Source: Candidatus Foliamicus sp. (GTDB lineage: Bacteria > Pseudomonadota > Gammaproteobacteria > Steroidobacterales > Foliamicaceae). From it: a stretch of 64,000 bases of DNA. The stretch covers positions 2,790,152 through 2,854,151 of the forward strand of contig OZ253475.1 in assembly GCA_965261845.1 (NCBI GenBank), in the 5' to 3' direction. Made by a program: the position numbers and the translations under genes. Shown here one piece after another: positions 1 to 24,632 of the stretch (position 1 is the stretch's first letter; each line of letters begins with the position of its first letter). The notes below the pieces were generated by a model. It saw only the letters and a list, made by a program, of their open reading frames with translations. It did no database searches and was not told the origin of the DNA.

Positions 1-2585
1 ACGCTGAAGTCGAGTTCGTCGACATCGGTGTCGGGATCGGTCCAGACTTCGAAGAGCTGCACCACGATGACGACCCTGTCCTGTTCCTGGTCCACCTCGA
101 TCGTGGTCGTGCCCGCCTTGGTCTTCGCATCAGTCTTCCGGCTGACCGACCACCTCGCGGGTGTGTCCTCGTCGGCTTCGTCGTCGGCGATGGTGGATTG
201 ACTGAACGTGGGCGCCTCGTCCGCGGCGTCCTCAAGGTCGAAGGTGATGTCCTTATCGTCCGTCTCGCCTGCGCCGTCCGTCACCGTCACCGTGATGTCA
301 ACTTCGTCGTCATCCTCGAAATCCAGGGGCTTGACCGGTGTCCTTAGATCTTTGCCCTTGTCGTCTACCGCCAGCTCCGCCGCCGACTTGGTGTGAATCT
401 CGTAGTGCACGGAATCTTCGTCCCTGCCCACTTCCATCACCTTCAAGCGATTCTTGACGTTCGTGCCTTCCTGTTTCGCCGTAAAATCGACCTCCAGCAC
501 GCCGTATGGATGCGGCGCGATGGCTACGTCATCGTCGCGGACAGAGAAAGAGGCGACCTTCTGCGAACCGGAGCCTTCCGTGTAATCGAACTCCTCGACG
601 TCACGGATGTCGGGCGTATCGTTGTCCCTGTCATCATCATCGGACAGCGCCACAGCCAGCTTGAAACTGGTCTGCGCCGAATTGTCGCCCTCGTCCGTGG
701 CAGTGACCGTGACCGTGTAGACACCACGTTCCGGCAGCATGTCCGCCTTATTGGTCATCTTTCCGGAGTCGGAAATCTGCAGCCAATCCACGACACTGCC
801 GTCGGAATCGACCACCGAAACGGTGTAGGTCAGGTCGTCGCCATCCTCGTCGGTGAAGGCCGCATCGTCTCCGGTCGTATCCAGAGCAAAGCTCAGCCAG
901 TCGCCGTCGCGCACATCTTCTTCATCCAGGTCGTCGTCTACCGTGACCCACCAGTCGCCGATAGTCTTGAGGGCGACCGGGCCGTCTCCGGCCGCAATGT
1001 CCTTGACCGTGATCTTGATCGACTGCGATATGGAAGCGTTGGTGGGATCCTCGCCTTTACCCGGCGCAGTCACCTGCCGGTCGGTAGCGGTAATCTTCAG
1101 GGTGATTTCGTCGCCTGCCTCGAAGTTCAGGGACGCGTCGTCCTTGAGCTTGAGCTGCCCGTCGGCGGTTACCTCGAACCGGGCATCGGCCTCGCCGTCC
1201 ACCTCGAAGGTGTAATCATGCTGACCGTGCGGATGCCTGGCGTCGTCGTTGTCTTGGACCCTCACCGTTCCGAGCACCGCGCCCTTGGCGTTTTCGTCCA
1301 CCTCGACGGCGGTAACGCGAACCACAACGCCGTCCTTTTCCGTCACCTGCAAATCGAGCCGGCTCGGCGCAGCGTTCTTTGCGTCGACAATCACATCGAA
1401 GGTTGCCTCGGCTGTCATGCCTCCGGCGTCCATCGCGATGATCGACAAGCCGTCAATCGAGTCGGTCATGCCGGCCGGTGACGTGCCGGAAATGGTTCCC
1501 ATGATGGTCTGATCGGCGCCGGAGCCCGCAGTGGTCACCGAGAAGGTCAACCAGCCCGGGGCATTGTCCGAAAGCCGGTAGGTGAGCGTGTCACCGTCGG
1601 GGTCCGTGAACAGCGCCTTGAGGTCCACCGTGGTGGAGTTCTCTTCGCCGCCTGCGAAAACCGCGTCGGCAACACCGGTTTCAGCAACCGAGGGGCCTTC
1701 GTTCACGTCGTTGACCGTGACGGTGACTTCCTCGACGTTCGATACTACGCCAGAGCTGTCGGTGTAGCTCACTGTGAGCATCACCTCACCACCGACCTTC
1801 TCGTAATCGAAGGTGGTGCCTTCCGTCATCGCCAGCCACAGCCCATTCTCGGGATCGAGGATGACCTGGAAGTATTCGGCCATGTCGCCGCCAAGGGTAA
1901 CGGCGTCCGCGCCTTCCTGGTGGGTCGTCGGATCGCCGGCATCGGCGTCCATGACTTCGATCAGCGCAAGAGGCGGACCTCCCTTGCCGTCATGCACCGT
2001 GTTCTCGTCTATGGTCAGGCTCGTGTTGACGTCCTTGACCGGCACAATCTCGTTGTCCCGCACATCGACCGTCGGCGCCTCGTTCACGTCACCGATCGTG
2101 ACGGTGACAGTGTGGGTGGCGGATGCGCCATCGCCACTGGCCGTGATGGTTACGTCAACCGATCCACCATCCTCGCTCTCGAAGTCAAGGCTCATGTCAT
2201 CCTTCAACTTCAAGTTGCCGCCGGCAACGCCGCCGTCAACCTCAAACCGCTTGTCGCCCACCATGATCGAGGTCGCGTTTTCAAACGCTACCGCAACCAG
2301 CGTAGCGCCGTCCATGTTCTCGTCCACCGATGCCGTGGCGTCCGCGGTGATCACCGCCGCCGGTGGAGGTGGAGGCGGAGGCGGAGGCGGAGGCGGAGGC
2401 GGAGGCGGAGGCGGAGGCGGAGGAGGCGTCGGCCGTTGCGAGCCTCCACCCCCGCAGGCGTCCAGCGCGAGCGCCAATGCGGGAATTACAAGAATATCCG
2501 CTCGCGACGGATTCTCCCGACGCTGGCGTATCGCCCCTTCAAGGCGCGCCTGCAAGAGTTTGATTACGATTCCTGACTTAGACAT
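1..2585 (-). CDS. Large cadherin-repeat / dystroglycan-type cadherin-like surface lipoprotein. N-terminal ~861 codons are present and the 3' end lies outside the window.
   Basis: The minus-strand frame is open from the window edge to the ATG at 2585-2583, preceded by AAGGAGG. It is absent from the ORF track because no stop lies in the window. The N-terminus is MSKSGIVIKLLQARLEGAIRQRRENPSRADILVIPALALALDAC-GGGGS (hydrophobic stretch plus Cys). About 24 Pro follow, then repeated ~100-aa modules with cadherin-type signatures (DVNEAPT, VNDVNEGPS, DPDGDTLTYRLSDNAPGWLTFS). Confidence 0.8.
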   Translation of the reverse strand, partial: MSKSGIVIKLLQARLEGAIRQRRENPSRADILVIPALALALDACGGGGSQRPTPPPPPPPPPPPPPPPPPPPPPPAAVITADATASVDENMDGATLVAVAFENATSIMVGDKRFEVDGGVAGGNLKLKDDMSLDFESEDGGSVDVTITASGDGASATHTVTVTIGDVNEAPTVDVRDNEIVPVKDVNTSLTIDENTVHDGKGGPPLALIEVMDADAGDPTTHQEGADAVTLGGDMAEYFQVILDPENGLWLAMTEGTTFDYEKVGGEVMLTVSYTDSSGVVSNVEEVTVTVNDVNEGPSVAETGVADAVFAGGEENSTTVDLKALFTDPDGDTLTYRLSDNAPGWLTFSVTTAGSGADQTIMGTISGTSPAGMTDSIDGLSIIAMDAGGMTAEATFDVIVDAKNAAPSRLDLQVTEKDGVVVRVTAVEVDENAKGAVLGTVRVQDNDDARHPHGQHDYTFEVDGEADARFEVTADGQLKLKDDASLNFEAGDEITLKITATDRQVTAPGKGEDPTNASISQSIKITVKDIAAGDGPVALKTIGDWWVTVDDDLDEEDVRDGDWLSFALDTTGDDAAFTDEDGDDLTYTVSVVDSDGSVVDWLQISDSGKMTNKADMLPERGVYTVTVTATDEGDNSAQTSFKLAVALSDDDDRDNDTPDIRDVEEFDYTEGSGSQKVASFSVRDDDVAIAPHPYGVLEVDFTAKQEGTNVKNRLKVMEVGRDEDSVHYEIHTKSAAELAVDDKGKDLRTPVKPLDFEDDDEVDITVTVTDGAGETDDKDITFDLEDAADEAPTFSQSTIADDEADEDTPARWSVSRKTDAKTKAGTTTIEVDQEQDRVVIVVQLFEVWTDPDTDVDELDFS
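2362..2427. repeat. GGAGGC-type hexanucleotide microsatellite encoding the poly-proline linker of the lipoprotein
   Basis: A run of ggtgga/ggaggc units, with at least 8 perfect ggaggc copies at 2371-2418. Read on the minus strand it gives CCT/CCG Pro codons. Confidence 0.9.
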
Positions 2586-3164: not shown

Positions 3165-3246
3165 CGGCTTATCCCCGCTGGCGCGGGGGAACACACGAGC
3201 TTGTTACCAAGCAAGGGCCTATCCCCGCTTGCGCGGGGGCAATCAC
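3165..3246 (-). CRISPR. Two-repeat type I-E mini-array (degenerate repeat, ~20-nt spacer, canonical repeat)
   Basis: Minus-strand read: TAA(cas6e), 16 nt, GTGATTGCCCCCGCGCAAGCGGGGATAGGCCC, TTGCTTGGTAACAAGCTCGT, GTGTTCCCCCGCGCCAGCGGGGATAAGCCG. The distal repeat is almost the canonical I-E repeat (E. coli GAGTTCCCCGCGCCAGCGGGGATAAACCG). The proximal repeat keeps the CCCCGC/GCGGGG stem. No third repeat was seen in the next ~500 nt. Confidence 0.7.
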
Positions 3247-3262
3247 GCGATACCCGCAACAG

Positions 3263-4042
3263 TTAGACCTGCACAGGCGCGCGCTTCGGCGGACGCAGGA
3301 GAAGCATGCCATACCCGTACGCGCGGTGTCGACCGACCCCGCACCGCAGGAGACTAGCAAAGGCGGTTGGGTCATTCACTGTCAGCACGCCGTGAAACAC
3401 CGCCTCCGGGCCTTCTATCATTTGATTTCCTCGCGCCACGCACACTCGCTGAAAGCGAGCCAGCCGGCTGGTGACCCGGTCCAATTCGGCCGCTTTGCGT
3501 AATTGCTCATCGAGCCAGTCAAGATATATGTCCTGGCGCCCGATCTTGGCGTCCGGATTCCGCAGTACGGCCAGCCAGAACGCATCGAGTTCCGTAGATC
3601 CGGCTCCGGGTTTTTCTCCCACTACGCTCCCGTTGCGCGTTTCAATCGGCCGGCTGACCCTGCGCACCGGCCGTGCCTGCACATCAAACCCCAGCCGCTG
3701 CCCTTCGCGCCATTGGTTTGGCATGGGTTTGGTGGTGATCCGGGCCGCGTCCAGCACGGACAAGTGTTCGGGCCACGCAAAGTTCGCTGCCGCTTCACGC
3801 AACTCCGTACCGTCCTTCCTGGAGTATGCGTACAGGTTCCCTGCCGAACTTCTTGGCGGCACCATCAGACGAAACGGGCTCAGGACCTGACGACCGAAGA
3901 CCTCCGTAAGCAGGTGGTGGAGCGCGCGGCCGCGGTCCAAGCGCGCGTGCGCGTTGCCTCGCCGTACCCAGCCGCGCTCGCCCACCCAGCGAGCCAACTG
4001 GTCTAGTCGAACAGGAACGCGAACGAGAAAGAAGCCCTTCAC
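3263..4042 (-). CDS. cas6e: Cas6e (CasE/Cse3) crRNA endoribonuclease
   Basis: The C-terminus GVLTVNDPTAFASLLRCGVGRHRAYGYGMLLLRP matches the Cas6e signature (E. coli GVLTINDAPALIDLVQQGIGPAKSMGCGLLSL). The preferred start is the GTG at 4042, which overlaps the cas5e stop (GTGA). The track ATG at 4096 is an alternative. Confidence 0.85.
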   Translation of the reverse strand: MKGFFLVRVPVRLDQLARWVGERGWVRRGNAHARLDRGRALHHLLTEVFGRQVLSPFRLMVPPRSSAGNLYAYSRKDGTELREAAANFAWPEHLSVLDAARITTKPMPNQWREGQRLGFDVQARPVRRVSRPIETRNGSVVGEKPGAGSTELDAFWLAVLRNPDAKIGRQDIYLDWLDEQLRKAAELDRVTSRLARFQRVCVARGNQMIEGPEAVFHGVLTVNDPTAFASLLRCGVGRHRAYGYGMLLLRPPKRAPVQV

Positions 4043-4761
4043 GGCACCCAACCCTCCACGACGCGTCGGCTGCCACTGTGCAATCCAGTGCGCCATTTGC
4101 GCAGATCCGCCCGTTCAACAAGCCGGTCCACATGCGCCCCACGCTCCGGCCCCTCGCCCACCGGCCACAGCGCCCGCCTGCGAGCTGACGATGATTGGTC
4201 CGCCGCGACGGCACAAAGCGCCGCATAGGCGTTGGGTGCCTCCACCCAACGTTCCGATTCCGGCGCTACCAGAGGCCGCGACGGCAGGCATGTCTTGCGC
4301 CCGACAAACAGGGGGCGGGCCGGGCAATCGAAGGCGTGGGCCAACGCCTCTATCGTTGGTGGCACATTGATCTGCTCCAGCCGCAATACAACGCCAACCG
4401 CCTCATCGGCAAGGTATTCGCGCCTGCGCCGGTGCGGACTGGCATAGGTTCGCCAGCCGCCTGTACGTTGCTCGGGCGCGGCCCGCGTAGTCCAGGCTGT
4501 GTCCCGACTGTTCAGTTCCGCGTTTTGCATGTCGGTCAGCAAGAAACCCTCGCGCTGCTTGTAGGCAGCGAACACGAGCCGGTCTTGCAAGACCTGATGC
4601 TGCGCTCCATCGCACCAATGCCACCCCAGCGCGTTGCCGATGAGTCCGGTGATCATGGAGGCAGCCGGAAAATCCCGAATCGGGCGCACCTGGTCCACGG
4701 CGATTCCTCCGAACGCCATCAGCGGGGCCTCGAGACGCAAGACCAGCCAATGGTGGTTCAT
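4039..4761 (-). CDS. cas5e: Cas5e (CasD)
   Basis: The N-terminus MNHHWLVLRLEAPLMAFGGIAVDQVRPIRDFPAASMITGLIGNALG is the typical Cas5e motif. Its ATG overlaps the cas7e stop (ATGA at 4758-4761). Confidence 0.85.
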   Translation of the reverse strand: MNHHWLVLRLEAPLMAFGGIAVDQVRPIRDFPAASMITGLIGNALGWHWCDGAQHQVLQDRLVFAAYKQREGFLLTDMQNAELNSRDTAWTTRAAPEQRTGGWRTYASPHRRRREYLADEAVGVVLRLEQINVPPTIEALAHAFDCPARPLFVGRKTCLPSRPLVAPESERWVEAPNAYAALCAVAADQSSSARRRALWPVGEGPERGAHVDRLVERADLRKWRTGLHSGSRRVVEGWVP

Positions 4762-5948
4762 TGCGGCAACTGCTGCGGCAAACCCCGGGCCCAAGACGCG
4801 AGATCCGCCAAAGACCCGGGTTGGACATCGGCGAAACCTACATCAGCGATCGAAAGTATGCGGCGCTGCTCACCGGTAGCGTAAACCGCGTCCAGTTTAT
4901 GCAAGTGGGCCGCCAGAACCTCGGCGGCCGCGTCCAGTTCTGGCGCGCACGGCGTGCGGAACGCCTCGGCCAGGCTGCGCGGCTGCCGGTCGCCGGCCTC
5001 CAGCAACATCAGCGACGCGCGCGAATAGGGTGCCGTCGAGCCCAATTTGGCGCCCGGTGAGACTTCGGCAATGAGATGAACCAGATTGTAGAGCACCTTC
5101 CCGGTCAGTGGGGCGCTGGACAGTTCTTCCCCCAGGTTGGCCGCCAGTGACGGGATGTCCACCACGACATACCCGTAGAACAGGCTCGAAGTCAATTCAG
5201 TTTCCTGGATGGTGGCGGCGCTCGATCCGGCTTCAAGCAGATCATCCACCGCCGTCAAGTAGTCGGTTTCCACCTCTTCCGCGTGAACCGAAAACGAATG
5301 CGCGACATGCAGCGGCCCGGTCATGTTGGCGGCGGAGTCCGACGTCACCAGGCGACCGAACAGCGCCGCCGTCAGCCCTGCGGGGAGCTGCGTGCTTTCG
5401 CGCATGGCTCTTATGTTGGCCCGAAACGATTTTTGAGGACTGCCTGTCCCGTCGCCGTCCACCCATCGCTTCGCCAACTTGAATGCGTTTTCCGCGTTTC
5501 CGTCTGCCTGGGCCATCAACCGCGCGAATTCCGTGCCCAGCCATTCAATCTCCGGCACTCCAAACAACAGCGGTTGGCGCTTGTTTTCGAACCTGGACTT
5601 CTCGCCGTGCTCTGTTGGCGCATCCTCGCGATTGAATCCATAAATGGCGAACTGAAACCACGGCGCGAGCGCTTCGACGACAGCATGGTCCCAACGCACG
5701 CCGCTTGAGCGAGCCTGCTTGATGATCTTGTCCACGAGATAGCGCGAACGAACGGACGCCACGCCAATCTTCTCCAGCGCGCGCGGATCTTCCGCCATGC
5801 GCCAATGCCGTTTCAGGCATTGCGAGGCAACGCGCGTGCGCGAGACTCCGCCGTAGGGCAGGCGCTTCGCCAGCCCATCCTCGTCGCGGTTCAGCAAGAC
5901 CCCTGTATAGGGACTTAGGGTGTGGACTTGAAGAAAGCGAGGTCTCAT
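4758..5948 (-). CDS. cas7e: Cas7e (CasC/Cse4) Cascade backbone subunit
   Basis: MRPRFLQVHTLSPYTGVLLNRDEDGLAKRLPYGGVSRTRVASQCLKRHWR matches the Cas7e N-terminal signature (FLQIH.L....NLNRDD.G.PK...fGG..R.RiSSQ.LKR). An AAGGGGA RBS is present. The ATG overlaps the upstream stop (ATGA at 5945-5948). Confidence 0.9.
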   Translation of the reverse strand: MRPRFLQVHTLSPYTGVLLNRDEDGLAKRLPYGGVSRTRVASQCLKRHWRMAEDPRALEKIGVASVRSRYLVDKIIKQARSSGVRWDHAVVEALAPWFQFAIYGFNREDAPTEHGEKSRFENKRQPLLFGVPEIEWLGTEFARLMAQADGNAENAFKLAKRWVDGDGTGSPQKSFRANIRAMRESTQLPAGLTAALFGRLVTSDSAANMTGPLHVAHSFSVHAEEVETDYLTAVDDLLEAGSSAATIQETELTSSLFYGYVVVDIPSLAANLGEELSSAPLTGKVLYNLVHLIAEVSPGAKLGSTAPYSRASLMLLEAGDRQPRSLAEAFRTPCAPELDAAAEVLAAHLHKLDAVYATGEQRRILSIADVGFADVQPGSLADLASWARGLPQQLPQ

Positions 5949-8059
5949 AAAACAATTCCCCTTCTGTGTTCGGCCGCGGACTGGGAAAGCGCCCGGTCCA
6001 AGCAACGATAGTATGGCTGGGCAATTCTCCGCCCGTCCTGCGGCGTAAGCAGAATTGCGACAATATCGGTGACATCGACTCCGGAGCCGCGCGGCATGCA
6101 CGCACTCAGCCTGCGTGCCGCCCGGTGAAGATGGCCGGCGCGCACTTGTCCTCGGGCCACAAGAAGTTGCAGCAACCTCGTCTCGCTAAGAAAAGGCCGT
6201 GCGCTGTGTTGTTCTCGTTCCAGCCAATCGCTATCGCCGCCGTCACAAAATACGGTCCCCAGCCGACGCTGCGGATCATGAAGGGGCGGACGCTCGGCGG
6301 GGTTGCCCTTCGGCGTAAGGATCGCCAAGGTCCGCACGATCGCATTCCATTCTTCTTCGCGGTCTCTTCGCCCGATCGTATCCGGGTGTCGAGCTGCGAG
6401 AGACTCAAACGCCGGCCCGCCCGTGGCGACCGGCATCCGGCGCAGCTGCGCCAATTCGTCGGCACTCATACGCTGCAGCCAGGCCGCCGCGGCGCACGCT
6501 GCATCATCTGTTCGTCTACCATTCAGCTCCTCCGATACAGACAATACAGACAATTCAGGAAATTGCTTGCGCAACCCTTTGCGGAACTGCCTGTGCGCAC
6601 GTGCTTCCGCACGATGCCGTAACGCCGAGGGACAAGGCATGGAAGAGAGACCAGTTTCAAACTCGATCCGTGCAGCGTGCCGAAGATCTTCCAAGAAGGC
6701 CTTTCGGACGCCATCGAACGACCTATTGCCGCCTTCCTGATGCGCCGCCACCCGTTTCCAAAGCGCCTCGAAGAACAACCGATCCGCGCGCCGATCAAAG
6801 CGGCTGCATGCGGTTTGCGCGTACTCGTAGTGTTTGCTTTCACTCCGCCGCCAGTCGCCCCCGGCCGCTACCGCCGCCAAAGCGTTTCTCAACAAGTTGT
6901 CAAACGCTTTGATTTCCTCCATCTGTTGCTTCGCACACTCAGCAGCGGTAGCCGACTCGTAGAACGCGCGCCCGGGCACCGGTACATGGCGTGCGTGAAA
7001 GCCCTCCGTCTTGCGCTTCCCACGCCCAAAAGCCTCCGCTACCAAGACCATGTCTTCGGACTCATGCGGGCCATATTCCGCCAGGATCGGTCGTTTCCAA
7101 TTGCCGGAAAACAGCAGCTCGTTCAGCCGAACATAAGTAAAGCCTCGTCTTCCCAGCGTAAGACTCTTGCCCTCCTTGTTCTCAACCGGGATCCAGGGAT
7201 CGCCGACGTTGCCCTTGAAAGGCCCTCCATCGGTGCGCGGTCTGCCTGAAGTGCTTCGGCGAGCTGTGATTCGCACACGTGCGTCCTCCAGCCGGACCCG
7301 TCGGCTCGTCTCAATGAACCACGGGTCCAGGTTCGGAACCTGCAATTGCTCCCCTTCCGGCCAGGGGAGACACCAGAGCAGCGCTGGGCCGCCGACAGCG
7401 CCCACACCAGAAGTCCGCGAGCCATGCAGCAGCCGGCGAACGTCTCGCGCCCACCACGCCGAAGGGCACACCGTCGTATCAAGCGCCGAGCCGGGCGCCA
7501 ATCCCAGGAGCGGGCGGCTGGATAGGCCGCTGCTCATCCGCACGATCCCATAATTGCCCTGGCCCGAATAGCCGGCCATCGTCTGCAACGAGACCAAGGC
7601 ATACAGCCAGTCCTCTGCCTCGCTCGCATAGGCGACTGCGTGCTTCTCATCGAAGTTCTTGGATGTACTTAGCATGTCCAAGTTGTCGGGAGTCGGCACC
7701 GGCTTCCATTTGAGGCCGCCAGGGTCCGGAGGCTGCAGGAAGGCTGGGCGCTCTGGATTCTCTACGATCAAACACCACGGCTCATCGTGGTCGAAATCGG
7801 TCGTCAATCCGCGCAAAAAGGCCGCCCAAGTCTCGCCATCCTCCGGCAGGCGATCCTGGTCTGCGTTCCACAAAGCCAGCGCCGCCAATTGCACCAGGAA
7901 CACGTGCCAAGCCGCACGCTGATGCGGCCGCAGGGAAACAAATCCCGCTACTTCCTGTCGCGCCATCGCCGCGAACAACCCCGGCAGCGTTAGGGCTTTT
8001 TCTTGCCTGGACCATCCGGACGCGGTAATCAGGGACTCCACCAATAGATTGTGTTTCAT
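5945..8059 (-). CDS. cas8e: Cas8e (Cse1/CasA) fused in-frame to Cas11e (Cse2/CasB), ~704 aa
   Basis: The N-terminus MKHNLLVESLI..LTLPGLFAAM.. and a length of ~515 aa fit Cse1. The C-terminal ~180 aa fit Cse2: LAQLRRMPVATGGPAFESLAARHP..EEEWNAIVRTLAIL..LSETRLLQLLVARGQVRAGHLHRAARRLS..VDVTDIVAILL..IAQPYY. It is a single uninterrupted ORF. The preferred start is the ATG at 8059 (AAGGA 8 nt upstream) rather than the track TTG at 8080. Confidence 0.8.
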   Translation of the reverse strand: MKHNLLVESLITASGWSRQEKALTLPGLFAAMARQEVAGFVSLRPHQRAAWHVFLVQLAALALWNADQDRLPEDGETWAAFLRGLTTDFDHDEPWCLIVENPERPAFLQPPDPGGLKWKPVPTPDNLDMLSTSKNFDEKHAVAYASEAEDWLYALVSLQTMAGYSGQGNYGIVRMSSGLSSRPLLGLAPGSALDTTVCPSAWWARDVRRLLHGSRTSGVGAVGGPALLWCLPWPEGEQLQVPNLDPWFIETSRRVRLEDARVRITARRSTSGRPRTDGGPFKGNVGDPWIPVENKEGKSLTLGRRGFTYVRLNELLFSGNWKRPILAEYGPHESEDMVLVAEAFGRGKRKTEGFHARHVPVPGRAFYESATAAECAKQQMEEIKAFDNLLRNALAAVAAGGDWRRSESKHYEYAQTACSRFDRRADRLFFEALWKRVAAHQEGGNRSFDGVRKAFLEDLRHAARIEFETGLSSMPCPSALRHRAEARAHRQFRKGLRKQFPELSVLSVSEELNGRRTDDAACAAAAWLQRMSADELAQLRRMPVATGGPAFESLAARHPDTIGRRDREEEWNAIVRTLAILTPKGNPAERPPLHDPQRRLGTVFCDGGDSDWLEREQHSARPFLSETRLLQLLVARGQVRAGHLHRAARRLSACMPRGSGVDVTDIVAILLTPQDGRRIAQPYYRCLDRALSQSAAEHRRGIVL

Positions 8060-8115
8060 CGCATCAATCCTTCGCGGCAATACTGGCAGTGTTTCCCTTC
8101 AATTGATACAACCGC

Positions 8116-8927: not shown

Positions 8928-10098
8928 GGAAGGTCTGAATAACGGCCTACATGGGCCGTGATGCGGTTAGCGCCCTCGCCGTTTGCGGTGAGATCCCGGT
9001 ATTGGCGCCGATTCGACGCAAAAACGGGGGTTTGCGGGGCGTTCTCGACGCCCGCTGCGGTTTCCACAGACACCAACCCCATGTCAGGCGGCCGCATAGC
9101 GGCCAGCGATGAGAAGATTGGTGAAGCCAAGCAGCATCGCGATGCGCTGCGTGTTCTTCGCCAAGCCCCTGTAGCGCACCTTGGAATAGCCGAAGTGGCG
9201 CTTCACATACAGGAACGGGTGCTCCACCTTCGCCCGAATCGACGCTTTGCGCTTCTCAGCCGCTTCCTCGGCACTCGCCTTGTCGAGCCGCCGGCGCCGG
9301 CCCGGCCTCATGGCCACCTGCCAGTCCACTTCCCGACCCTGGTGCTCCGGACGCTTGTGCACGCCCTGGTAGCCGGCGTCGCCTCGCACCTCGGATTCGC
9401 CGCCGTGCAATACCAAGTGCGCGTGCGTCACGTCCGCGCCGTTCGCCGCCGTCGTCGCCAACCCGTGTGTCAGACCCGACTGCGAGTCCACACCGATGTG
9501 CGCCTTCATCCCGAAGTACCAACGGTTGCCCTTCTTCGTGGGGTGCATTTCCGGGTCCCGCTCACCCTTCTTGTTCTTCGTCGACGAGGGCGCGTCAATG
9601 AGGCTCGCGTCCACGATCGTGCCCGTCTTGAGCCGGTGACCTTGCAACGCCAGGTGCGCGTTGATCTCCCCGAACAACTCCTCCCCCAGACCGTGACGCT
9701 CCAGCAGATGCCGAAAGTTCAGGATCGTCGTCTCGTCCGGCAGCGCACCCGTCAGCCGCAACCCCGCAAAGCGACGCACCGACTCCACCTCATACAACAG
9801 GTCCTCCATCCCCGGATCGCTTACGTTGTAGAACAACTGCACGCAGTGAACTCGAAGCATCGTTCCCAGCGGATACGGCCGCCGACCCCGTCCCGCCTTC
9901 GGATAAAACGGCTCAATGCGCCGCTCAAGCCGCTCCCAGGGAATCAGCCGGTCCATCTTCGCCAGAAACTTCTCGCGGCGCGTGCGCCGCTTCTTCAAAT
10001 CGTGCTCCAACTCCGAAAACGTCGCCTGTCCCATCTCAACAACCTCACCGCAAAAACGATACCGCTATTATCCCAGAAAGGACTTGATCAGACCTTCC
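8928..10098 (-). mobile_element. IS5-family insertion sequence (~1.17 kb)
   Basis: Terminal inverted repeats GGAAGGTCTGA at 8928 and (reverse complement) ending at 10098. It carries a single DDE transposase. The flanking tetranucleotides ATAG and TTAG are not identical. Confidence 0.85.
9084..10034 (-). CDS. IS5-family DDE transposase
   Basis: 316 aa. FLAKMDRLIPWERLERRIEPFYPKAGRGRRPYPLGTMLRVHCVQLFYNVSDPGMEDLLYE... and YRGLAKNTQRIAMLLGFTNL are typical of the IS5 group. Confidence 0.9.
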   Translation of the reverse strand: MGQATFSELEHDLKKRRTRREKFLAKMDRLIPWERLERRIEPFYPKAGRGRRPYPLGTMLRVHCVQLFYNVSDPGMEDLLYEVESVRRFAGLRLTGALPDETTILNFRHLLERHGLGEELFGEINAHLALQGHRLKTGTIVDASLIDAPSSTKNKKGERDPEMHPTKKGNRWYFGMKAHIGVDSQSGLTHGLATTAANGADVTHAHLVLHGGESEVRGDAGYQGVHKRPEHQGREVDWQVAMRPGRRRRLDKASAEEAAEKRKASIRAKVEHPFLYVKRHFGYSKVRYRGLAKNTQRIAMLLGFTNLLIAGRYAAA

Positions 10099-10484
10099 TT
10101 AGTGCTTTCTGCGACGTTTCAAGTGCGCAGGAAGACTTGGAACGGATCGTGGTCAACGCACAGCGTTACATGGCGCAGCTGGTCCCGCAAGCGCACGGCA
10201 ACGCGGCCTACGAGGTGCAGCAGGCCGAGGGCGCGGCTGTTCGGTGAGTGGAAACCTCTCAGGCGGAGGCGGAGGCCCTCGTTATCGTGGCCAGGGCGGT
10301 GCAAACCGCGCCTGGAGTAATCCAGAACATGCTCTGGCGGGAAAAGCTGGAAAGCGCTCTTTCCGGCAACGCCAAGATCATAATCCCTAATAAGGACAGC
10401 CTGGGAAAGGTGGCGTTGTGGAAGCGGTGCCCCGAAGAGAGCCCGGCAAACCATGGGCAGGACGGCAAGAAGAAAGGTAGGTAA
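10099..10484 (+). pseudogene. hflK: hflK 3' fragment, truncated by IS5, with an in-frame TGA at 10245-10247
   Basis: FCDVSSAQEDLERIVVNAQRYMAQLVPQAHGNAAYEVQQAEG..*..AEAEALVIVARAVQTAPGVIQNMLWREKLESALSGNAKIIIPNKD parallels the E. coli HflK C-terminal half. It is followed 2 nt later by the hflC start. Confidence 0.6.
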
Positions 10485-10486
10485 GT

Positions 10487-10636
10487 ATGAAAGGAAGACT
10501 GATCGCCACTATCCCGGCAATCGCGCTGGGTGTTGTCGCCTACGACAGTTTCTACGTCATCACCGAGACGGAACAGGGCGTGCTGACTCACTTTGGGAAG
10601 GTCTCCCCCCCGGTTCTGCAGCCGGTTTGGAAGATT
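10487..10636 (+). pseudogene. hflC: hflC 5' fragment (50 codons), interrupted by IS21
   Basis: MKGRLIATIPAIALGVVAYDSFYVITETEQGVLTHFGKV.. is the N-terminal TM plus SPFH start typical of HflC. Confidence 0.55.
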
Positions 10637-10756
10637 TGCATGTTAATCGGCGTGCAATAGTGACCCACTATCGGGGGAATCGGCGTCCAAAATTGACCCC
10701 CCTGAAGTTGATCGATTCAACTCACCTCGTTGTTTGGACGGACGGGGTGACGGGAG

Positions 10757-12268
10757 ATGTTGATAGTGGAGACGATTGCGCGGATCCGTCGGGATCATCT
10801 GGATCGGGGGGTGCCGATCAGGCGGATTGCCCGTGAGTTGAAGTTGTCGAGGAACACGGTTCGCAAAGCGATCCGTGGGGATGTAGCGGCGTTTGGATAC
10901 GAGCGCACGGTGCAGCCGCTTCCGAAGCTGGGTCCATGGGTCGGGGAGCTGGAGCGGTTAATGGAGGCCAACGAGGGCAAGCGCCGGCGGGAGCGTTTGT
11001 CGCTGCTGCGGATTTTTGAGCAGTTACAGGGACTGGGCTATGAGGGCGGATACGATGCGGTGCGTCGCTATGCGATGTCGTGGCGGTGGCGGCGTTCGGG
11101 GTCGGGTTCGCAAGTGTATGTGCCGTTGATTTTCGATCCGGGCGAGGCCTACCAGTTTGACTGGAGCCACGAGTATGCGGTGGTGGCGGGCACGACGACG
11201 CGAGTCAAGGCGGCGCACCTGCGGTTGTGCCACAGTCGGTTGTTCCTGGTTCAGATTTTTCCTCGGGAAAGCCAGGAGATGGTGTTTGAGGCGCACGAGC
11301 GCAGCTTCCGGTTCTTCGGTGGGGTATGCCGGCGCGGCATCTACGACAACATGAAGACGGCGGTGCAGACGGTGTTCGTTGGCAAGGCGCGCGCCTACAA
11401 CCGGCGATTCGTGGAGATGTGTTCGCATCATCTGATTGAGCCTGTGGCCTGCACGCCCGGGGCGGGTTGGGAGAAGGGCCAGGTGGAGAGCCAGGTGGGC
11501 CACGTGCGCGGGCGTATGTTCGTGCCGCGCCCGCGCGGGCGCAGTTACGCGGAGATCAACGCGTGGCTGAAGGATCAGTGCATCCGTGAGGCGAAGCGGC
11601 GGCGTCATCCCACGATCAAGGACAAGACGGTGTGGGAAGTTTACGAGCAAGAGCAGCCGTATCTGATGGCTTACCGGGGTCCGTTCGACGGGTTCCACGC
11701 GGTGGAGGCGGCGGTATCGAAGACGTGTCTGGTGTGTTTCGATCGCAATCAGTACAGCGTGGAGTCGCGCGCGGTGGGCCGCACGGTGGATGTGTGCGCA
11801 TATGCTGATCGGATCGTGATCCGCCAGAACGGCGAGACGGTGGGGGAGCATCCGCGCTGCTTTGAGCGTAACAAGGTGGTGTACAACCCGTGGCATTACG
11901 TGCCGATCCTCAAGCGCAAGCCCGGCGCGCTGAGGAATGGGGCGCCGTTCAAGGACTGGGCGCTGCCGGACGCGCTGGGGCGTGTACGGGCTGGATTGGG
12001 CCGTCATGACGACGGCGATCGGCAAGTGGTGAAGATCCTCGGTGCGGTGCTGGAGGATGGCCTGGAGGCGGTGGAGGCGGCCTGCGCCGAAGCCCTGGCC
12101 GAAGGCGCCTGCAGCCACGATGTGGTGCTCAATATCCTGGCGCGCCGGCGCCAGCCCGCGCCCCCGGCGCCGATCCCGACACCGGTGGATCTGTGGTTGC
12201 GCCTGGAGCCGACGGCCGACTGCGCTCGTTACGAGGGCTTGATGGAGGTGCGTCGTGGAGCGGCATGA
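10757..12268 (+). CDS. istA: IS21-family transposase IstA
   Basis: 503 aa. N-terminal HTH (IRRIARELKLSRNTVRKAIR), then AYQFDWSHE...CHSRLFLVQIFPRESQEMVFEAH..FFGGVCRRGIYDNMKTAV and the rest of the IstA core. Confidence 0.9.
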   Translation: MLIVETIARIRRDHLDRGVPIRRIARELKLSRNTVRKAIRGDVAAFGYERTVQPLPKLGPWVGELERLMEANEGKRRRERLSLLRIFEQLQGLGYEGGYDAVRRYAMSWRWRRSGSGSQVYVPLIFDPGEAYQFDWSHEYAVVAGTTTRVKAAHLRLCHSRLFLVQIFPRESQEMVFEAHERSFRFFGGVCRRGIYDNMKTAVQTVFVGKARAYNRRFVEMCSHHLIEPVACTPGAGWEKGQVESQVGHVRGRMFVPRPRGRSYAEINAWLKDQCIREAKRRRHPTIKDKTVWEVYEQEQPYLMAYRGPFDGFHAVEAAVSKTCLVCFDRNQYSVESRAVGRTVDVCAYADRIVIRQNGETVGEHPRCFERNKVVYNPWHYVPILKRKPGALRNGAPFKDWALPDALGRVRAGLGRHDDGDRQVVKILGAVLEDGLEAVEAACAEALAEGACSHDVVLNILARRRQPAPPAPIPTPVDLWLRLEPTADCARYEGLMEVRRGAA

Positions 12269-12842
12269 GGTACTGGACATGATGCGCGCGCTGCGTCTGT
12301 CGGGCATGCGCACGGTGTTCGACGAGATCGTGGCCGTGGCGATCAAGCGCGGTCACCCGGTCCAGCGCGTCATCGGCGAGTTGCTCAAGGCGGAGATCGC
12401 CGACAAGAAGGCGCGTTCGATCAAGTACCAGATGACCATCGCCAAGCTGCCGACGGTCAAGGAGCTGGCCGACTTTGACTTCGCCTCAAGCCCGGTCAAC
12501 GAACTGCTGGTGCGGGACCTGGCCACCGGCGCGTTCCTGGGCGACAAACGCAACCTCGTGCTGGTCGGCGGAACGGGAACCGGCAAGACGCATCTGAGCG
12601 TGGCCATCGCCCGGGCCTGCATCCGCAACGGCGCCCGGGCACGCTGCTACAACGTCGTGGACCTGGTCAATCACCTCGATGCCGAGGCGCGCGACGGCCG
12701 CCAGGGCCGGACCGCCAACCAACTGGGCCGACGTGATTTGATCATCCTCGACTTATGTTGCGTACGCGGTTATGTGGAGTTGGCGGTGCCCGGCAAGTGT
12801 TTTGTCGGGGGCAAAGCATGAACCAACTCCACATAATATTCG

Positions 12843-13877
12843 CTACAGGCGACGCAGCCATCCAGTGATATCGGAACCATCGATGGCGACCTGTCCGCCT
12901 TTCGGCGGCGCCAGTGCATCCGGGAACACCTGCGAGAGCGCGGTGCGCTTCAGGTCGATGTCGGCGCGTGCATAGCGCATAGTGGTGTTGACGCTGGCGT
13001 GCCCGAGCCACTGGCTGATGGTGGCGAAGTCCACGCCGGCTTTGAGGAGTTGGATGGCCGTGGTGTGTCGAAGGGAGTGCGGATGCAGTTGCTTGTCGCG
13101 AAGCGTGGGTGCGGCGCTTGCGCTGGCAGCCAGGTGTTTATTCAGCCGGTAGCGTACGCCGAAGCGCGTCAGCGGTCCGCCGCGTTGATTACGGAACACG
13201 ATGGCGGTCGAGGGATGGTCGTCATTTTCAGATCGTTCGTTATCGATCAGCGTGCGTAGCAACTGCGCGGTGGCGGGCCAGATCGGGCACAGGCGCACCT
13301 TGTTGCCCTTGCCGTGCAGGCGTACTTGGCAAGGCGGCTCAAGGCGCATGTCGCGCACCCGCAGGTTGAGGACCTCCTGGACGCGAGCGCCGGTGTTGAA
13401 CAGCAGCGCGAACAGTGTGTAATCGCGTTGGCCGCCGGAGGTATCGCGGTCGATGCTGTGCAGAAGCGCCGTCATCTCGGCGGTCTCGAAGTACTCGATC
13501 GGTGCTTCTCGCGCGCCGCGTTTGAAGGGGATAGAGAGAACGCTCTGGAGCGTCGCCAGGTACACGGGGTGTTGCGCGATGAGGAAGCGCGCGAACGTGT
13601 GCAGTGCAGCCAGGCGGGCATTGCGGGTGGCGACACCGTTGCGACGAACGCACTCAAGATACTGAAGGAACCGTATCACGCGTTCGCGATCGAGATCGGC
13701 GATCCTGAGCCGCTCGATGGGGCGCTGTGTGTCGCCGGATGCAAAACGCAGGAACAGCACGAGGGCGTCTCGGTAACTCTTGACGGTGTGCGTACTCAGA
13801 CCGCGCAGATGCGGCAGATACTCCTCGAAGAAGCCACGTACCGCCCGGCCGAGTTCGGTGGGTTTACCGGTGCTCAT
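12843..13877 (-). CDS. Tyrosine recombinase, third gene of the RIT trio
   Basis: The preferred start is MSTGKPTELGRAVRGFFEEYL (ATG 13877), overlapping the upstream gene by 14 nt. Catalytic motifs: TGARVQEV, HSLRHTTA, LGHASVNTTMRYA. Confidence 0.85.
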   Translation of the reverse strand: MSTGKPTELGRAVRGFFEEYLPHLRGLSTHTVKSYRDALVLFLRFASGDTQRPIERLRIADLDRERVIRFLQYLECVRRNGVATRNARLAALHTFARFLIAQHPVYLATLQSVLSIPFKRGAREAPIEYFETAEMTALLHSIDRDTSGGQRDYTLFALLFNTGARVQEVLNLRVRDMRLEPPCQVRLHGKGNKVRLCPIWPATAQLLRTLIDNERSENDDHPSTAIVFRNQRGGPLTRFGVRYRLNKHLAASASAAPTLRDKQLHPHSLRHTTAIQLLKAGVDFATISQWLGHASVNTTMRYARADIDLKRTALSQVFPDALAPPKGGQVAIDGSDITGWLRRL

Positions 13878-14850: not shown

Positions 14851-15007
14851 GACCGTGCTCCTCGATACCGGTGAGGCGGGGCACCGGAAGCGCCACGGCG
14901 CGCAAGGCCTTGATATCCAAACGCAGATAGACGCACGTGCTCTCCAGGCTACGATGGCCGAGAAGATCCCCGATCGTAAGCGTTCGGTTACCGGGTGATT
15001 TGCTGGC

Positions 15008-23071: not shown

Positions 23072-23170
23072 TGGAGTGCCCCAGGTTTGGTGGACACTTC
23101 CGGGCTATGTTGGAGTGCCCCCGATTTGGTAGACACTTCCGGGCTATGATTGGAGTGCCCCCGGTTTGGT
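23072..23170 (+). repeat. ~39-bp tandem repeat of the IS3 subterminal sequence, 2.5 copies here. The third copy continues at 24574-24612 after the nested IS.
   Basis: TGGAGTGCCCC(A/C)GGTTTGGT(G/A)GACACTTCCGGGCTATG(T/AT) at 23072, 23111 and 23151. A single related copy (..GAGTCAAGCCGCCATGGCCGACACTTCC) occurs at the other IS3 end at 59.12 kb. Confidence 0.85.
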
Positions 23171-23174
23171 GTTG

Positions 23175-24573: not shown

Positions 24574-24632
24574 GAGTGCCCCCGGTTTGGTAGACACTTC
24601 CGGGCTATGACCTGAGCATAGGAGGAAGTGCC

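What the first reader, a model, noticed from the sequence alone, without database searches (positions are those of the whole stretch)
5945..8059. Natural Cas8e-Cas11e (Cse1-Cse2) fusion protein
A single ~704-aa ORF carries two parts.

- A Cse1-like N-terminal ~515 aa (MKHNLLVESLI.., LTLPGLFAAM..).
- A Cse2-like C-terminal ~180 aa (LAQLRRMP..GGPAFESLAARHP, EEEWNAIVRTLAIL, LSETRLLQLLVARG, VDVTDIVAILL, IAQPYY).

No stop lies between them. The first internal Met of the Cse2 part (ATG at 6469-6467) has no Shine-Dalgarno sequence upstream; the preceding bases are ggcctggctgcagcgt. Canonical I-E Cascade contains two free Cas11 subunits per complex, so a covalent 1:1 fusion forces a different architecture.
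Basis: partly seen in the sequence, partly recalled or inferred. Interest (0 to 1): 0.7.

Follow-up and report, generated by a model that had tools for sequence, protein, structure and literature searches.

The report
Cas8e–Cas11e fusion in Cas3-less Cascade
[quoted passage not shown] The fusion sits in a stripped-down CRISPR locus that has no nuclease, no spacer-acquisition genes and only one short, conserved guide, so it most likely binds DNA without cutting it.

Summary
A 704-aa ORF (8059→5945, minus strand) has a Cse1/Cas8e body and a Cse2/Cas11e C-terminal domain. Both are supported by an AlphaFold model (pLDDT 91), Foldseek hits to solved CasA and CasB, and 50–57% identity of the C-terminus to free-standing Cse2 proteins.

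- **Not an artefact.** The identical protein occurs on a second assembly. A 65%-identical orthologue is fused in the same register in several metagenomes. Fused forms appear at five or more places in a tree of relatives.
- **Origin.** In 123 of 126 unfused relatives, cse2 starts in the +1 frame inside the last bases of cse1, so one indel fuses the genes. The old SD and ATG survive out of frame (6533–6520).
- **No conserved internal start** exists for a free Cas11.
The locus is Cascade-only: no cas3, cas1 or cas2 in 64 kb. A two-repeat mini-array with one 20-nt spacer follows cas6e.
- **Related loci.** Their short spacers keep an 11-nt seed in which only the flipped-out positions 6 and 12 vary freely. 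Sister loci have lost Cas11 altogether.
- **Best reading.** A nuclease-free, fixed-guide Cascade with at most one, tethered Cas11. Its target is unknown.

The parts
5945..8059 (-). cas8e-cas11e fusion gene (704 aa plus stop)
   Evidence: ORF and translation. AF2 model pLDDT 91. Foldseek matches to CasA and CasB. The identical protein occurs on a second assembly.
6560..8059 (-). Cse1/Cas8e body (aa 1-500), including the C-terminal helical bundle
   Evidence: Foldseek matches to 5cd4_I, 4h3t, 4f3e_A and 3wvo at probability 1.0. NCBIfam casA_cse1 matches aa 4-189 at E 7e-13. 1230 homologues, mostly ~510-aa Cse1 proteins.
6473..6559 (-). Junction (aa 501-529): former Cse1 tail (..FPELSVLSVSEELNG) joined to Cse2 helix 1 (RRTDDAACAAAAWLQR). 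The model predicts it as one continuous helix.
   Evidence: AF2 secondary structure shows helix 501-529, with pLDDT 79-95. The linker varies in length and sequence among fused homologues.
6520..6533 (-). Relic of the ancestral cse2 translation start: SD GGAGGAG (6533-6527) plus ATG (6522-6520). It is now in the +1 frame relative to the fused ORF.
   Evidence: Direct reading. It lies at the same place as the cse2 start in 123 of 126 unfused relatives, where cse2 overlaps the cse1 tail in the +1 frame. The same relic is present in L002, L006, L165, L167 and L168.
6466..6522 (-). 18-codon out-of-frame ORF (MVDEQMMQRAPRRPGCSV) opened by the relic ATG. Its TGA overlaps the in-frame ATG 6469-6467 as ATGA.
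   Evidence: The arrangement is not conserved in L002, where the relic ORF runs 111 codons, so it is probably not functional.
5948..6517 (-). Cse2/Cas11e domain (aa 515-704)
   Evidence: Foldseek matches to 3wa8, 2zca and 4h79. Pfam PF09485 matches aa 535-653. 50-57% identity to free-standing Cse2/CasB proteins, E down to 3e-50.
4758..5948 (-). cas7e (396 aa). Its start overlaps the fusion's stop as ATGA.
   Evidence: Pfam Cas_CT1975 at E 8e-79; NCBIfam casC_Cse4 at E 3e-74.
4039..4794 (-). cas5e (240-251 aa depending on the start chosen). No HNH insertion.
   Evidence: NCBIfam casD_Cas5e at E 2e-49. The only Pfam hit is Cas_Cas5d, covering aa 16-245.
3263..4096 (-). cas6e (259-277 aa)
   Evidence: Pfam CRISPR_assoc at E 2e-30; NCBIfam casE_Cse3 at E 1e-14.
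3215..3246 (-). Mini-array repeat 1 (GTGATTGCCCCCGCGCAAGCGGGGATAGGCCC). It starts 16 nt after the cas6e stop and would supply the 8-nt 5' handle AUAGGCCC.
   Evidence: Direct reading, core pattern search, conserved in L001, L002, L005 and L169-L171.
3195..3214 (-). Single 20-nt spacer, TTGCTTGGTAACAAGCTCGT. The first 11 nt (TTGCTnGnTAA) are conserved across the clade.
   Evidence: Positions 6 and 12 vary among six loci while positions 1-5, 7 and 9-11 are invariant.
3165..3194 (-). Mini-array repeat 2 (GTGTTCCCCCGCGCCAGCGGGGATAAGCCG). By my recollection of the E. coli sequence, this is close to the I-E repeat consensus. It would supply the 3' hairpin.
   Evidence: The repeat period is 50 nt, against 61 nt in canonical arrays.
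1..2585 (-). 5' part of a giant cadherin/Ig-repeat lipoprotein gene (runs off the window). It is the conserved downstream neighbour of this Cascade module.
   Evidence: Translation. Pfam Cadherin, He_PIG and Cadherin_4. It is homologous to the ~2050-aa proteins that follow cas6e in L002 and L005, with a near-identical N-terminus. Large ORFs also follow cas6e in L169 and L170, but their homology was not tested.

Best explanation
**What it is**
- The gene encodes a genuine single-chain Cas8e–Cas11e. It arose when one small indel hit the short stretch where cse2 normally begins, in the +1 frame, inside the 3' end of cse1. That single change removes the cse1 stop and reads straight into cse2. The old SD and ATG were left stranded out of frame.

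**The locus it belongs to**
- It is a derived, Cascade-only type I-E locus: cas8e-11e, cas7e, cas5e, cas6e, and no Cas3, Cas1 or Cas2.
- Its only guide comes from a two-repeat mini-array that is probably co-transcribed just after cas6e.

**How it most likely works (inferred)**
- Cas6e cuts out a ~50-nt crRNA with an 8-nt handle, a 20-nt spacer and a 22-nt hairpin.
- A shortened complex assembles on it: one Cas8e–Cas11e, about four Cas7, one Cas5 and one Cas6e.
- The tethered Cas11 domain lies next to the Cas8e helical bundle as the only unit of the minor filament.
- The complex recognises a PAM plus an ~11-nt seed on a conserved DNA target. With no nuclease, it acts as a roadblock or regulator and does not cut.

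**Shown versus inferred**
- Shown: both domains, that the fusion is real and recurrent, the frameshift origin, the absence of cas3/cas1/cas2 in the window, the mini-array, and seed conservation.
- Inferred: subunit counts, crRNA processing, the absence of a free Cas11, and the regulatory role.

**Confidence by component**
- About 0.97 that the fusion is real and is Cse1 plus Cse2.
- About 0.8 for the frameshift-in-overlap origin.
- About 0.5 for the single-Cas11, nuclease-free regulator model.
For: **The domains**
- AF2 model with pLDDT 91.1 and pTM 0.79; Foldseek matches to CasA and CasB structures.
- The C-terminus is 50-57% identical to free Cse2 proteins.

**The fusion is real**
- The identical 704-aa protein is on two different contigs with different IS content.
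- Orthologue P0002 (65% identical) is fused in five contigs from JGI and ENA samples.
- 22 of the 120 best homologues are fused, at five or more places in an NJ tree.

**Origin by frameshift**
- cse2 starts in the +1 frame within the last 4-23 nt of cse1 in 123 of 126 unfused loci.
- A relic +1 ATG lies 68-89 nt before the LAELRR motif in six fused lineages.
- The window and L002 share the same 26-nt distance from that ATG to the TGC codon.

**No conserved internal start**
-.

**Cascade-only context**
- tblastn with two cas3 and two cas1 queries finds nothing in the 64-kb window.
- 84 of 93 unfused relatives have cas3 upstream, whereas six of eight fused lineages lack it.

**Mini-array and short spacers**
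-.

**Seed signature**
- In the window clade, positions 6, 8 and 12 are the only variable ones among the first 12 (six loci).
- Between L010 and L087, only positions 6 and 12 differ among the first 15. By my calculation, chance gives about 0.045 × 0.0095.

**Stoichiometry rule**
- Removing 12 nt from the spacer removes two Cas7 and one Cse2 (PMC6859484).

**Cas11 is dispensable for silencing in E. coli**
- PMC12235044.

**Sister loci lack Cas11**
- L005, L169, L170 and L171.
Against: - No target for the spacer was found in the window, in 171 related loci or in viral contigs. The regulatory role therefore has no identified substrate.
- Spacer lengths in related mini-arrays (20-28 nt) are not all multiples of 6 below 32, so the exact 4-Cas7/1-Cas11 count holds only for the window (and the other 50-nt-period arrays, L170 and L010).
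- A cas3 gene elsewhere in the genome cannot be excluded.
- Repeat 1 is degenerate and crRNA processing is untested.
- The fusion also exists in a complete, apparently adaptive I-E system (L006/L166). It is therefore not specific to reduced loci.
- Repeated loss of Cas11 in sister loci could mean the fused domain is merely tolerated. Against that, it has stayed intact across 61%-identity divergence and folds confidently.
Confidence: 0.6

Rival explanations
1. The fusion is an assembly or sequencing frameshift error. In reality cse1 and cse2 would be two overlapping genes, as in most I-E loci.
For: Many related genomes in the scan are long-read MAGs, which are prone to indels. The out-of-frame SD and ATG at 6533-6520 look like a normal cse2 start.
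Against: - The identical 704-aa protein is on a second, structurally different contig.
- Orthologue P0002 has the same frame relation and the same 26-nt spacing in five contigs, including k141-type short-read assemblies and a JGI metagenome.
- From the relic ATG the +1 frame runs only 18 codons and does not encode Cse2.
- The junction is modelled as a confident continuous helix.
Confidence: 0.03
2. The gene makes two products, as type I-B, I-C and I-D cas8/cas10d genes do: the fused large subunit, plus free Cas11 from an internal start. The complex would then keep two or more Cas11 units.
For: - Internal in-frame translation of Cas11 is established for I-B, I-C and I-D (bioRxiv 10.1101/2020.04.18.045682; PMC11899642).
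- In the complete fused system L006, an in-frame ATG preceded by GGGGGAGAG sits at the old cse2 start. L087 has a GTG preceded by GAAGGAAGGAA.
- In the window, the relic SD-ATG opens an 18-codon ORF whose stop overlaps the in-frame ATG 6469 (ATGA). That could allow termination-reinitiation.
Against: - In the window no in-frame start with an SD lies at the Cse2 N-terminus.
- The only in-frame ATG (aa 531) would delete helix 1 and has no SD of its own.
- The ATGA arrangement is absent from the orthologue L002, where the relic ORF runs 111 codons.
- L132, L133, L140, L165, L167 and L168 have no plausible internal start.
- Sister loci manage with no Cas11 at all.
Confidence: 0.15
3. The locus is a decaying remnant of a type I-E system. 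cas3, cas1, cas2 and the array were lost, and the fusion is a neutral lesion on the way to pseudogenisation with no function.
For: - The locus lies in a lower-GC island (0.61 against 0.70-0.73) crowded with IS5, IS21 and IS66-like elements and integrases.
- Sister loci show cse2 deletions. L170 shows frameshifts in the cse1 tail and a truncated cas6e.
- No target was found.
Against: - All four Cascade genes are intact and translationally coupled in the window and in the clade members L001, L002, L005, L169 and L171 (L170 is degraded). Between the window and L002, Cas7 is 81%, Cas5 78%, Cas6 68%, Cse1 69% and the Cse2 domain 61% identical.
- The mini-array sits in the same place in every clade member, and its seed is conserved with the 6/12 periodicity expected of a guide in use.
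- The same architecture recurs in unrelated lineages: Binatia L010, and L167 and L168.
Confidence: 0.12
4. It is a normal interference complex that uses a Cas3 and crRNAs encoded elsewhere in the genome. The fusion would be irrelevant to the mechanism.
For: - Only 64 kb of a ~3.6-Mb contig could be inspected.
- L165 carries a long array of a different repeat type next to its Cascade-only genes.
- Fused L006 works with Cas3 and 32-nt spacers.
Against: - cas3 is directly upstream of cse1 in 84 of 93 unfused relatives, so its absence here is a derived state.
- The clade's own guide is short and only its seed is conserved. According to a published summary of earlier work, that is the pattern of non-cleaving regulatory guides and gives poor cleavage in E. 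coli (PMC10120712; PMC6859484).
Confidence: 0.1

Closest known systems
Canonical type I-E Cascade (E. coli, T. fusca: Cse1(1) Cse2(2) Cas7(6) Cas5(1) Cas6e(1) plus Cas3)
   Same: The protein folds match for Cse1, Cse2, Cas7e, Cas5e and Cas6e. The gene order is the same. The repeat has the same CCCCGCG-loop-CGCGGGG hairpin and an ATAxxCCx handle.
   Different: - Cse1 and Cse2 are one polypeptide.
- There is no cas3, cas1 or cas2.
- The array has two repeats and one 20-nt spacer, not many 32-nt spacers.
- The predicted complex has one Cas11 and about four Cas7.
Large-small subunit single genes of types I-B, I-C and I-D, with internal translation of Cas11 (McBride et al. 2020 preprint; Haloferax Cas11b, PMC11899642)
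   Same: The Cas11 domain is encoded at the 3' end of the large-subunit gene. The published idea that a tethered Cas11 could nucleate the minor filament applies here too.
   Different: - Those genes keep a functional in-frame internal RBS and start and produce several free Cas11 copies.
- Here the ancestral start is out of frame and no conserved in-frame start exists.
- This fusion is a recent, recurrent event within I-E, not an ancestral architecture.
CreA/CreR and other regulatory mini-arrays ('cr-like RNAs') of type I systems (bioRxiv 10.1101/2023.03.10.532045; PMC10120712)
   Same: Two repeats, one of them degenerate, flank a spacer whose seed alone is conserved. Every sixth position is free. 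The guide is expected to direct binding without cleavage.
   Different: - Known CreR/CreA elements sit in complete loci beside a canonical array and Cas3, and they target the cas or toxin promoter nearby.
- Here the mini-array is the only guide, there is no Cas3, and no target lies in or near the locus.
Cas3-less derived type I variants: I-E2 (Cas5-HNH), I-F4 (Cas8-HNH), I-F3 and I-B CASTs, I-E5 CAST (PMC12669027; PMC10910872)
   Same: Loss of Cas3 and of adaptation genes. Altae-Tran et al. note that in some HNH loci cas8 is additionally fused to cas11.
   Different: - There is no HNH or other nuclease domain. Cas5 is 251 aa and carries only a Cas5 domain.
- No Tn7 or Mu transposition genes are adjacent. 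The neighbours are integrases, IS elements and a giant adhesin-like gene.

Membership tests
Type I-E CRISPR-Cas effector (Cascade) | Cse1/Cas8e large subunit | tested here: met
   Foldseek probability 1.0 to six or more solved CasA/Cse1 structures. NCBIfam casA_cse1 at E 7e-13, below the curated cut-off.
Type I-E CRISPR-Cas effector (Cascade) | Cse2/Cas11e small subunit | tested here: met
   The C-terminal ~180 aa match CasB structures 3wa8, 2zca and 4h79. They are 50-57% identical to free Cse2 proteins carrying PF09485. The domain is present as part of a larger protein, not as a separate gene.
Type I-E CRISPR-Cas effector (Cascade) | Cas7e, Cas5e and Cas6e in the order cse1-cse2-cas7-cas5-cas6e | tested here: met
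   TIGR01869, TIGR01868 and TIGR01907 all score above their cut-offs. The genes are overlapping or coupled.
Type I-E CRISPR-Cas effector (Cascade) | Cas3 helicase-nuclease, the signature of type I | tested here: not met
   No tblastn hit with two divergent Cas3 queries anywhere in the 64-kb window. The gene upstream is a DsbD_N-like gene. The rest of the genome could not be searched.
Type I-E CRISPR-Cas effector (Cascade) | Adaptation module (cas1-cas2) and a multi-spacer array of ~32-nt spacers | tested here: not met
   No Cas1 hit in the window. Only two repeats with one 20-nt spacer.
Large-subunit genes with internally translated Cas11 (I-B/I-C/I-D type) | In-frame internal RBS plus start codon at the N-terminus of the Cas11 domain | tested here: not met
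   The window has no in-frame ATG, GTG or TTG with an SD in the 60 codons before the Cse2 anchor motif. The SD-ATG that is present is in the +1 frame. Translation itself cannot be tested here.
CreR/CreA-type regulatory mini-CRISPR | Two (degenerate) repeats flanking a spacer-like sequence of which only the seed is conserved | tested here: met
   The seed TTGCTnGnTAA is invariant in six loci and the sequence downstream of it is unrelated.
CreR/CreA-type regulatory mini-CRISPR | Partial complementarity, with a PAM, to a cas or toxin promoter in the same locus | tested here: not met
   There is no seed match outside the mini-array itself in the window or in the clade loci.
I-E2 (Cas5-HNH) Cas3-less variant | HNH nuclease domain inserted in Cas5 | tested here: not met
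   Cas5e is 240-251 aa, and the single Cas5 Pfam domain covers aa 16-245.
CRISPR-associated transposon (CAST) | Adjacent Tn7-like, Mu-like or telomeric transposition genes (tnsABC/tniQ or equivalents) | tested here: not met
   The neighbours are IS5, IS21 and IS66-like transposases and tyrosine recombinases. No Tns or TniQ domain was seen among the ORFs scanned, but not every ORF in the window was scanned.

The most novel reading that the evidence does not exclude
The window belongs to an undescribed, recurrent class of derived type I-E systems.

- They are nuclease-free and adaptation-free Cascades that carry a single hard-wired short guide.
- The requirement for two free Cas11 subunits has lapsed, so Cas11 is either welded to Cas8e or lost.
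- Carried on integrase-bearing islands, they would act as RNA-guided DNA-binding regulators, or as element-versus-element competitors, at a conserved chromosomal or mobile target.
- They are genetically linked to giant surface adhesin or Slam-type surface-lipoprotein genes.
Probability: 0.35. Interest if true: 0.75.

Novelty: new variant of a known kind. Interest (0 to 1): 0.6.

Why it matters
- **Natural experiment on Cas11.** It shows how much Cas11 a type I-E Cascade needs. Where cutting by Cas3 is gone, two free small subunits are no longer maintained. One tethered copy, or none, suffices, which matches recent E. coli data that Cas11 is dispensable for silencing.
- **A simple route to recurrent fusion.** Overlapping cse1/cse2 reading frames make the fusion a one-mutation event. 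That bears on the open question of whether large-small subunit fusions arose once or many times.
- **A compact natural template.** The set comprises four genes, a ~50-nt guide and a pre-fused large-small subunit. It could serve as a starting design for minimal CRISPRi or recruitment tools.
- **A possible new derived I-E variant.** The conserved seeds point to a fixed, still unknown cellular or mobile-element target. If found, it would define a new exapted CRISPR function.

Tried and rejected
- **Profile HMM of the family against PDB sequences.** No hit at E ≤ 0.01. The fold comparison was needed instead.
- **Search for the spacer's target**, all negative:
  - the full 20-mer with up to 3 mismatches;
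  - the 14-mer with up to 3 mismatches;
  - the seed with N at positions 6 and 8, in the window;
  - the same seed in all 171 loci;
  - per-locus seed scans;
  - viral contigs with the window spacer and with the 33-nt second spacer of L002.
- **Seed-like hits judged to be chance.**
  - Hits at the 3' end of cas2 in four Rhodobacterales loci are one homologous event with no canonical PAM.
  - An AAG-flanked 9/10 seed match in L010 lies inside an IS transposase ORF.
- **tRNA or att-site idea for the target.** There are no tRNA genes in the window. Only L169 and L010 have one nearby.
- **Promoter/terminator scan and Rfam scan of the mini-array region.** Nothing found.
- **Literature search for a named Cse1-Cse2 or Cas8e-Cas11 fusion.** No paper in the held library. 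Makarova 2020 was not available.
- **Hypothesis that every short spacer is exactly 12 nt shorter.** Rejected. The repeat periods are 50, 51, 53, 54, 56 and 57 nt.
- **Organism identity.** It could not be obtained because the cluster entries carry no names.

Full report
**1. The observation**

On the minus strand an ORF runs from ATG 8059 to TGA 5945 (704 aa). Homologues start at the same MKHNLL, so the ATG is preferred over the upstream TTG at 8080. Its stop overlaps the start of cas7e as ATGA. cas5e and cas6e follow on the same strand.

Curated HMMs alone would not have settled the domain calls. Pfam Cse2 gives E 3.5e-3 and NCBIfam Cse1 gives E 7e-13, both below their cut-offs. A family profile also found nothing among PDB sequences.

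**2. Both domains are real**

- An AlphaFold2 model built on 120 homologues has mean pLDDT 91.1 and pTM 0.79. Residues 501-529 across the junction form one helix.
- Foldseek matches the first ~550 residues to CasA/Cse1 of E. coli, Thermus, Acidimicrobium, Thermobifida and a I-E HNH Cascade (probability 1.0). It matches the last ~180 residues to CasB/Cse2 of Meiothermus, Thermus and Thermobifida (probability 0.95-1.0).
- The C-terminal 195 aa alone retrieve 152 proteins. The 120 listed are free-standing (131-205 aa), up to 57% identical with E down to 3e-50. Many are tagged PF09485 and one is named CasB.

**3. Not an artefact, and not unique**

- The identical protein is on a 3.57-Mb contig and on a 190-kb metagenome contig, L001. 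L001 differs structurally from the window: an IS sits between cas6e and the next gene, and the integrase trio is uninterrupted.
- A 65%-identical orthologue, P0002, is fused in five contigs from several samples.
- Of the 120 best homologues, 22 are ~700-aa fusions. In a neighbour-joining tree of the Cse1 part they fall in at least five places. This tree is rough and carries no support values.
- In a scan of species-representative genomes, only 2 of 80 related loci were fused. The state is therefore recurrent but uncommon.

**4. How the fusion arises**

- In 123 of 126 unfused relatives, cse2 starts in the +1 frame inside the last 4-23 nt of cse1, most often with a 14-nt overlap. Its SD lies in the Glu-Glu codons of the Cse1 tail.
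- One indel between the cse2 ATG and the cse1 stop therefore both skips the stop and joins the frames.
- The window carries exactly the predicted scar. SD GGAGGAG (6533-6527) and ATG (6522-6520) sit in the +1 frame at the homologous ..EELNG.. position. They open an 18-codon dead-end ORF.
- The same out-of-frame relic lies 68-89 nt before the conserved LAELRR motif in L002, L006, L165, L167 and L168.
- The window and L002 share the same 26-nt spacing from the relic ATG to a conserved TGC codon. This suggests a single event before their divergence.

**5. Is a free Cas11 still made?**

- A scan of eleven fused genes found no conserved in-frame start with an SD at the Cse2 N-terminus.
- The window's only in-frame ATG (M531) lacks an SD and would remove helix 1.
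- Plausible in-frame starts exist only in L006 (ATG after GGGGGAGAG) and L087 (GTG after GAAGGAAGGAA), the two fused loci that retain cas3.
- In the window, the relic ORF's TGA overlaps ATG 6469 as ATGA. That could allow reinitiation, but it is not conserved in L002. I give dual-product expression about 15%.

**6. Context changes the interpretation**

- The window has no cas3 or cas1 homologue anywhere.
- It lies in a 0.61-GC island among IS5, IS21 and IS66-like elements and tyrosine recombinases, next to 0.70-0.73-GC DNA.
- Sixteen bases after cas6e there is a two-repeat mini-array:
  - repeat 1 (3246-3215) is degenerate;
  - a 20-nt spacer (3214-3195) follows;
  - repeat 2 (3194-3165) is, by my recollection of the E. 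coli sequence, close to the I-E consensus.
- There are no other repeats in the window.

Among relatives, 84 of 93 unfused loci have cas3 upstream and 79 of 89 have cas1 downstream. The fused lineages divide as follows:

| Fused lineage | cas3 | Array near the cas genes |
|---|---|---|
| window / L001 | absent | 2 repeats, 50-nt period |
| L002 | absent | 3 repeats, 51- and 61-nt periods |
| L010 | absent | 2 repeats, 50-nt period, ~5 kb upstream |
| L140 | absent | at least one I-E repeat, then the contig ends |
| L165 | absent | long array of a different repeat type |
| L167 | absent | 2 repeats, 56-nt period |
| L168 | absent | 2 repeats, 53-nt period |
| L006 / L166 | present | long arrays, 61-nt period |
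| L087 | present (partial, near the contig end) | 2 repeats, ~55-nt period |

Sources. L006/L166 is a complete system with cas3, cas1 and cas2.

- The mini-array loci (window/L001, L002, L010, L087, L167, L168) each carry one spacer of 20-28 nt, with repeat periods of 50-57 nt. L002 has one additional 33-nt spacer.
- The window's closest relatives (L005, L169, L170, L171) have the same Cascade-only layout and mini-array but no Cas11 at all. L005, L169 and L171 keep the unfused cse1 stop, followed by a 14-50-aa remnant ORF.

**7. The guide looks functional**

- Across six loci of the window clade the spacer begins TTGCTnGnTAA. Positions 1-5, 7 and 9-11 are invariant, positions 6, 8 and 12 vary, and everything after that is unrelated.
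- In a second group (L010 against L087), the first 15 positions differ only at 6 and 12.
- Every sixth base of a type I guide is flipped out and does not pair, so this is the pattern expected of a seed kept by selection. By my calculation, chance placement gives about 0.045 and 0.0095 for the two groups.
- I found no target.

**8. Mechanism proposed**

- Published work shows that Cascade loses one Cas7 per 6 nt and one Cse2 per 12 nt of spacer removed (PMC6859484).
- It also shows that E. coli Cascade lacking Cas11 still silences genes (PMC12235044).
- Seed-only regulatory guides from mini-arrays are known to direct repression without cleavage.
- Taken together, the window most likely encodes a shortened, nuclease-free Cascade. 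It would have one Cas8e-Cas11e, about four Cas7, Cas5, Cas6e and a ~50-nt crRNA, and it would bind a conserved site through a PAM plus an ~11-nt seed.
- The fusion is best seen as a change that became tolerable, or convenient, once Cas3 recruitment and full R-loop locking were no longer needed. It is not a design that forced a new architecture on a canonical complex.
- The Cas11 domain is nevertheless maintained. It is 61% identical between the window and L002, it is an open frame of ~176 codons in both, and it folds confidently.

**9. Comparison with known systems**

- It works most like a CreR/cr-like-RNA-guided Cascade, or like CRISPRi. It fails the membership tests for that family because there is no target in the locus and no canonical array or Cas3 alongside.
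- Its gene layout resembles the I-B, I-C and I-D single large-small subunit genes, but it lacks their internal start.
- It is not I-E2 (no HNH domain) and shows no signs of being a CAST.
- Cas8-Cas11 fusions have been mentioned only in passing for HNH variants (PMC10910872). I found no paper describing this arrangement.

**10. Verdict**

- The fusion itself is a modest novelty with a clear mechanistic origin.
- The Cascade-only, fixed-guide context, with Cas11 fused or lost, is the more interesting result. It deserves a target search in the complete genomes.

Noticed in passing
window 1-2585 (-); L002 9161-15304; L005 14903-21052; L169 10768-15442; L170 8110-12711: In the window, L002 and L005 this Cascade-only module is followed on the same strand by a ~2000-aa cadherin/Ig-repeat lipoprotein gene. 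Its N-terminus is almost identical across these loci (MSKSG.VI.LLQARLE..NPSRADILVIPALALALDACGGGG) and is followed by a poly-proline run. Large ORFs also follow cas6e in L169 and L170, but their homology was not tested. Other Cas3-less fused loci sit beside Slam (SlipAM) and porin genes (L010, L168). The reason for the linkage is unknown.
   Followed up: partly
L005 11470-11700; L169 7340-7570; L171 2080-2300: The closest relatives of the window's cas8e have no cas11 at all. cse1 stops normally and a 14-50-aa remnant ORF fills the gap before cas7. Cas11 is therefore lost repeatedly in this Cas3-less clade.
   Followed up: yes
L010 5087-5160 (opposite strand); L087 ~6940-7010; L167 ~16190-16270; L168 ~14880-14960: Unrelated fused lineages also carry two-repeat mini-arrays with one short spacer. 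L010, L167 and L168 lack cas3, while L087 retains a partial cas3. L010 and L087 share TTGTGnTACCCnCGT. L167 and L168 share GArAAAGTATC. Each pair seems to have its own fixed target.
   Followed up: partly
window 12843-19008 (-): Three tyrosine-recombinase genes resemble a recombinase-in-trio element. In the window they are interrupted by a DruA-like ORF and an IS66-family transposase (15008-17847). In L001 the three integrases are contiguous, and a DruA/DDE transposase sits between cas6e and the adhesin gene.
   Followed up: partly
window 8958-12821: An IS5-family transposase (10034-9084, minus strand) and an IS21 istA/istB pair (10757-12821, plus strand) lie just upstream of the cas operon. 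A DsbD_N-like ORF (8913-8116) ends 56 nt before the fusion gene.
   Followed up: no
window 1-24000 versus 26000-50000: GC content steps from about 0.59-0.69 in the first 24 kb to 0.70-0.73 between 26 and 50 kb. This suggests that the Cascade, IS and integrase region is a horizontally acquired island.
   Followed up: no
window 23072-23188 and 24574-24610: 39-nt repeats (TGGAGTGCCCCCGGTTTGGTRGACACTTCCGGGCTATG) occur in tandem on one side, with a further copy on the other side, of an HTH/IS481-like transposase ORF (24485-23304). They are probably IS end repeats.
   Followed up: no
window 2362-2441: A (GGAGGC)n tandem repeat encodes the poly-proline linker of the adhesin on the minus strand. It could be a contingency or length-variable tract.
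   Followed up: no
L165 14809-16830: The Cascade-only fused locus of P0009 lies next to a 28-repeat array with a 36-nt repeat of a different type (GCTTCAATGAGGCCGGGGCGCGACGGCCCCGGATAC, ~72-nt period). This is not a I-E repeat.
   Followed up: no
window 3201-3214 (-): The window's spacer is self-complementary (GCTTG-GTAA-CAAGC, a GNRA-type loop). The hairpin is not conserved in the other clade members.
   Followed up: no
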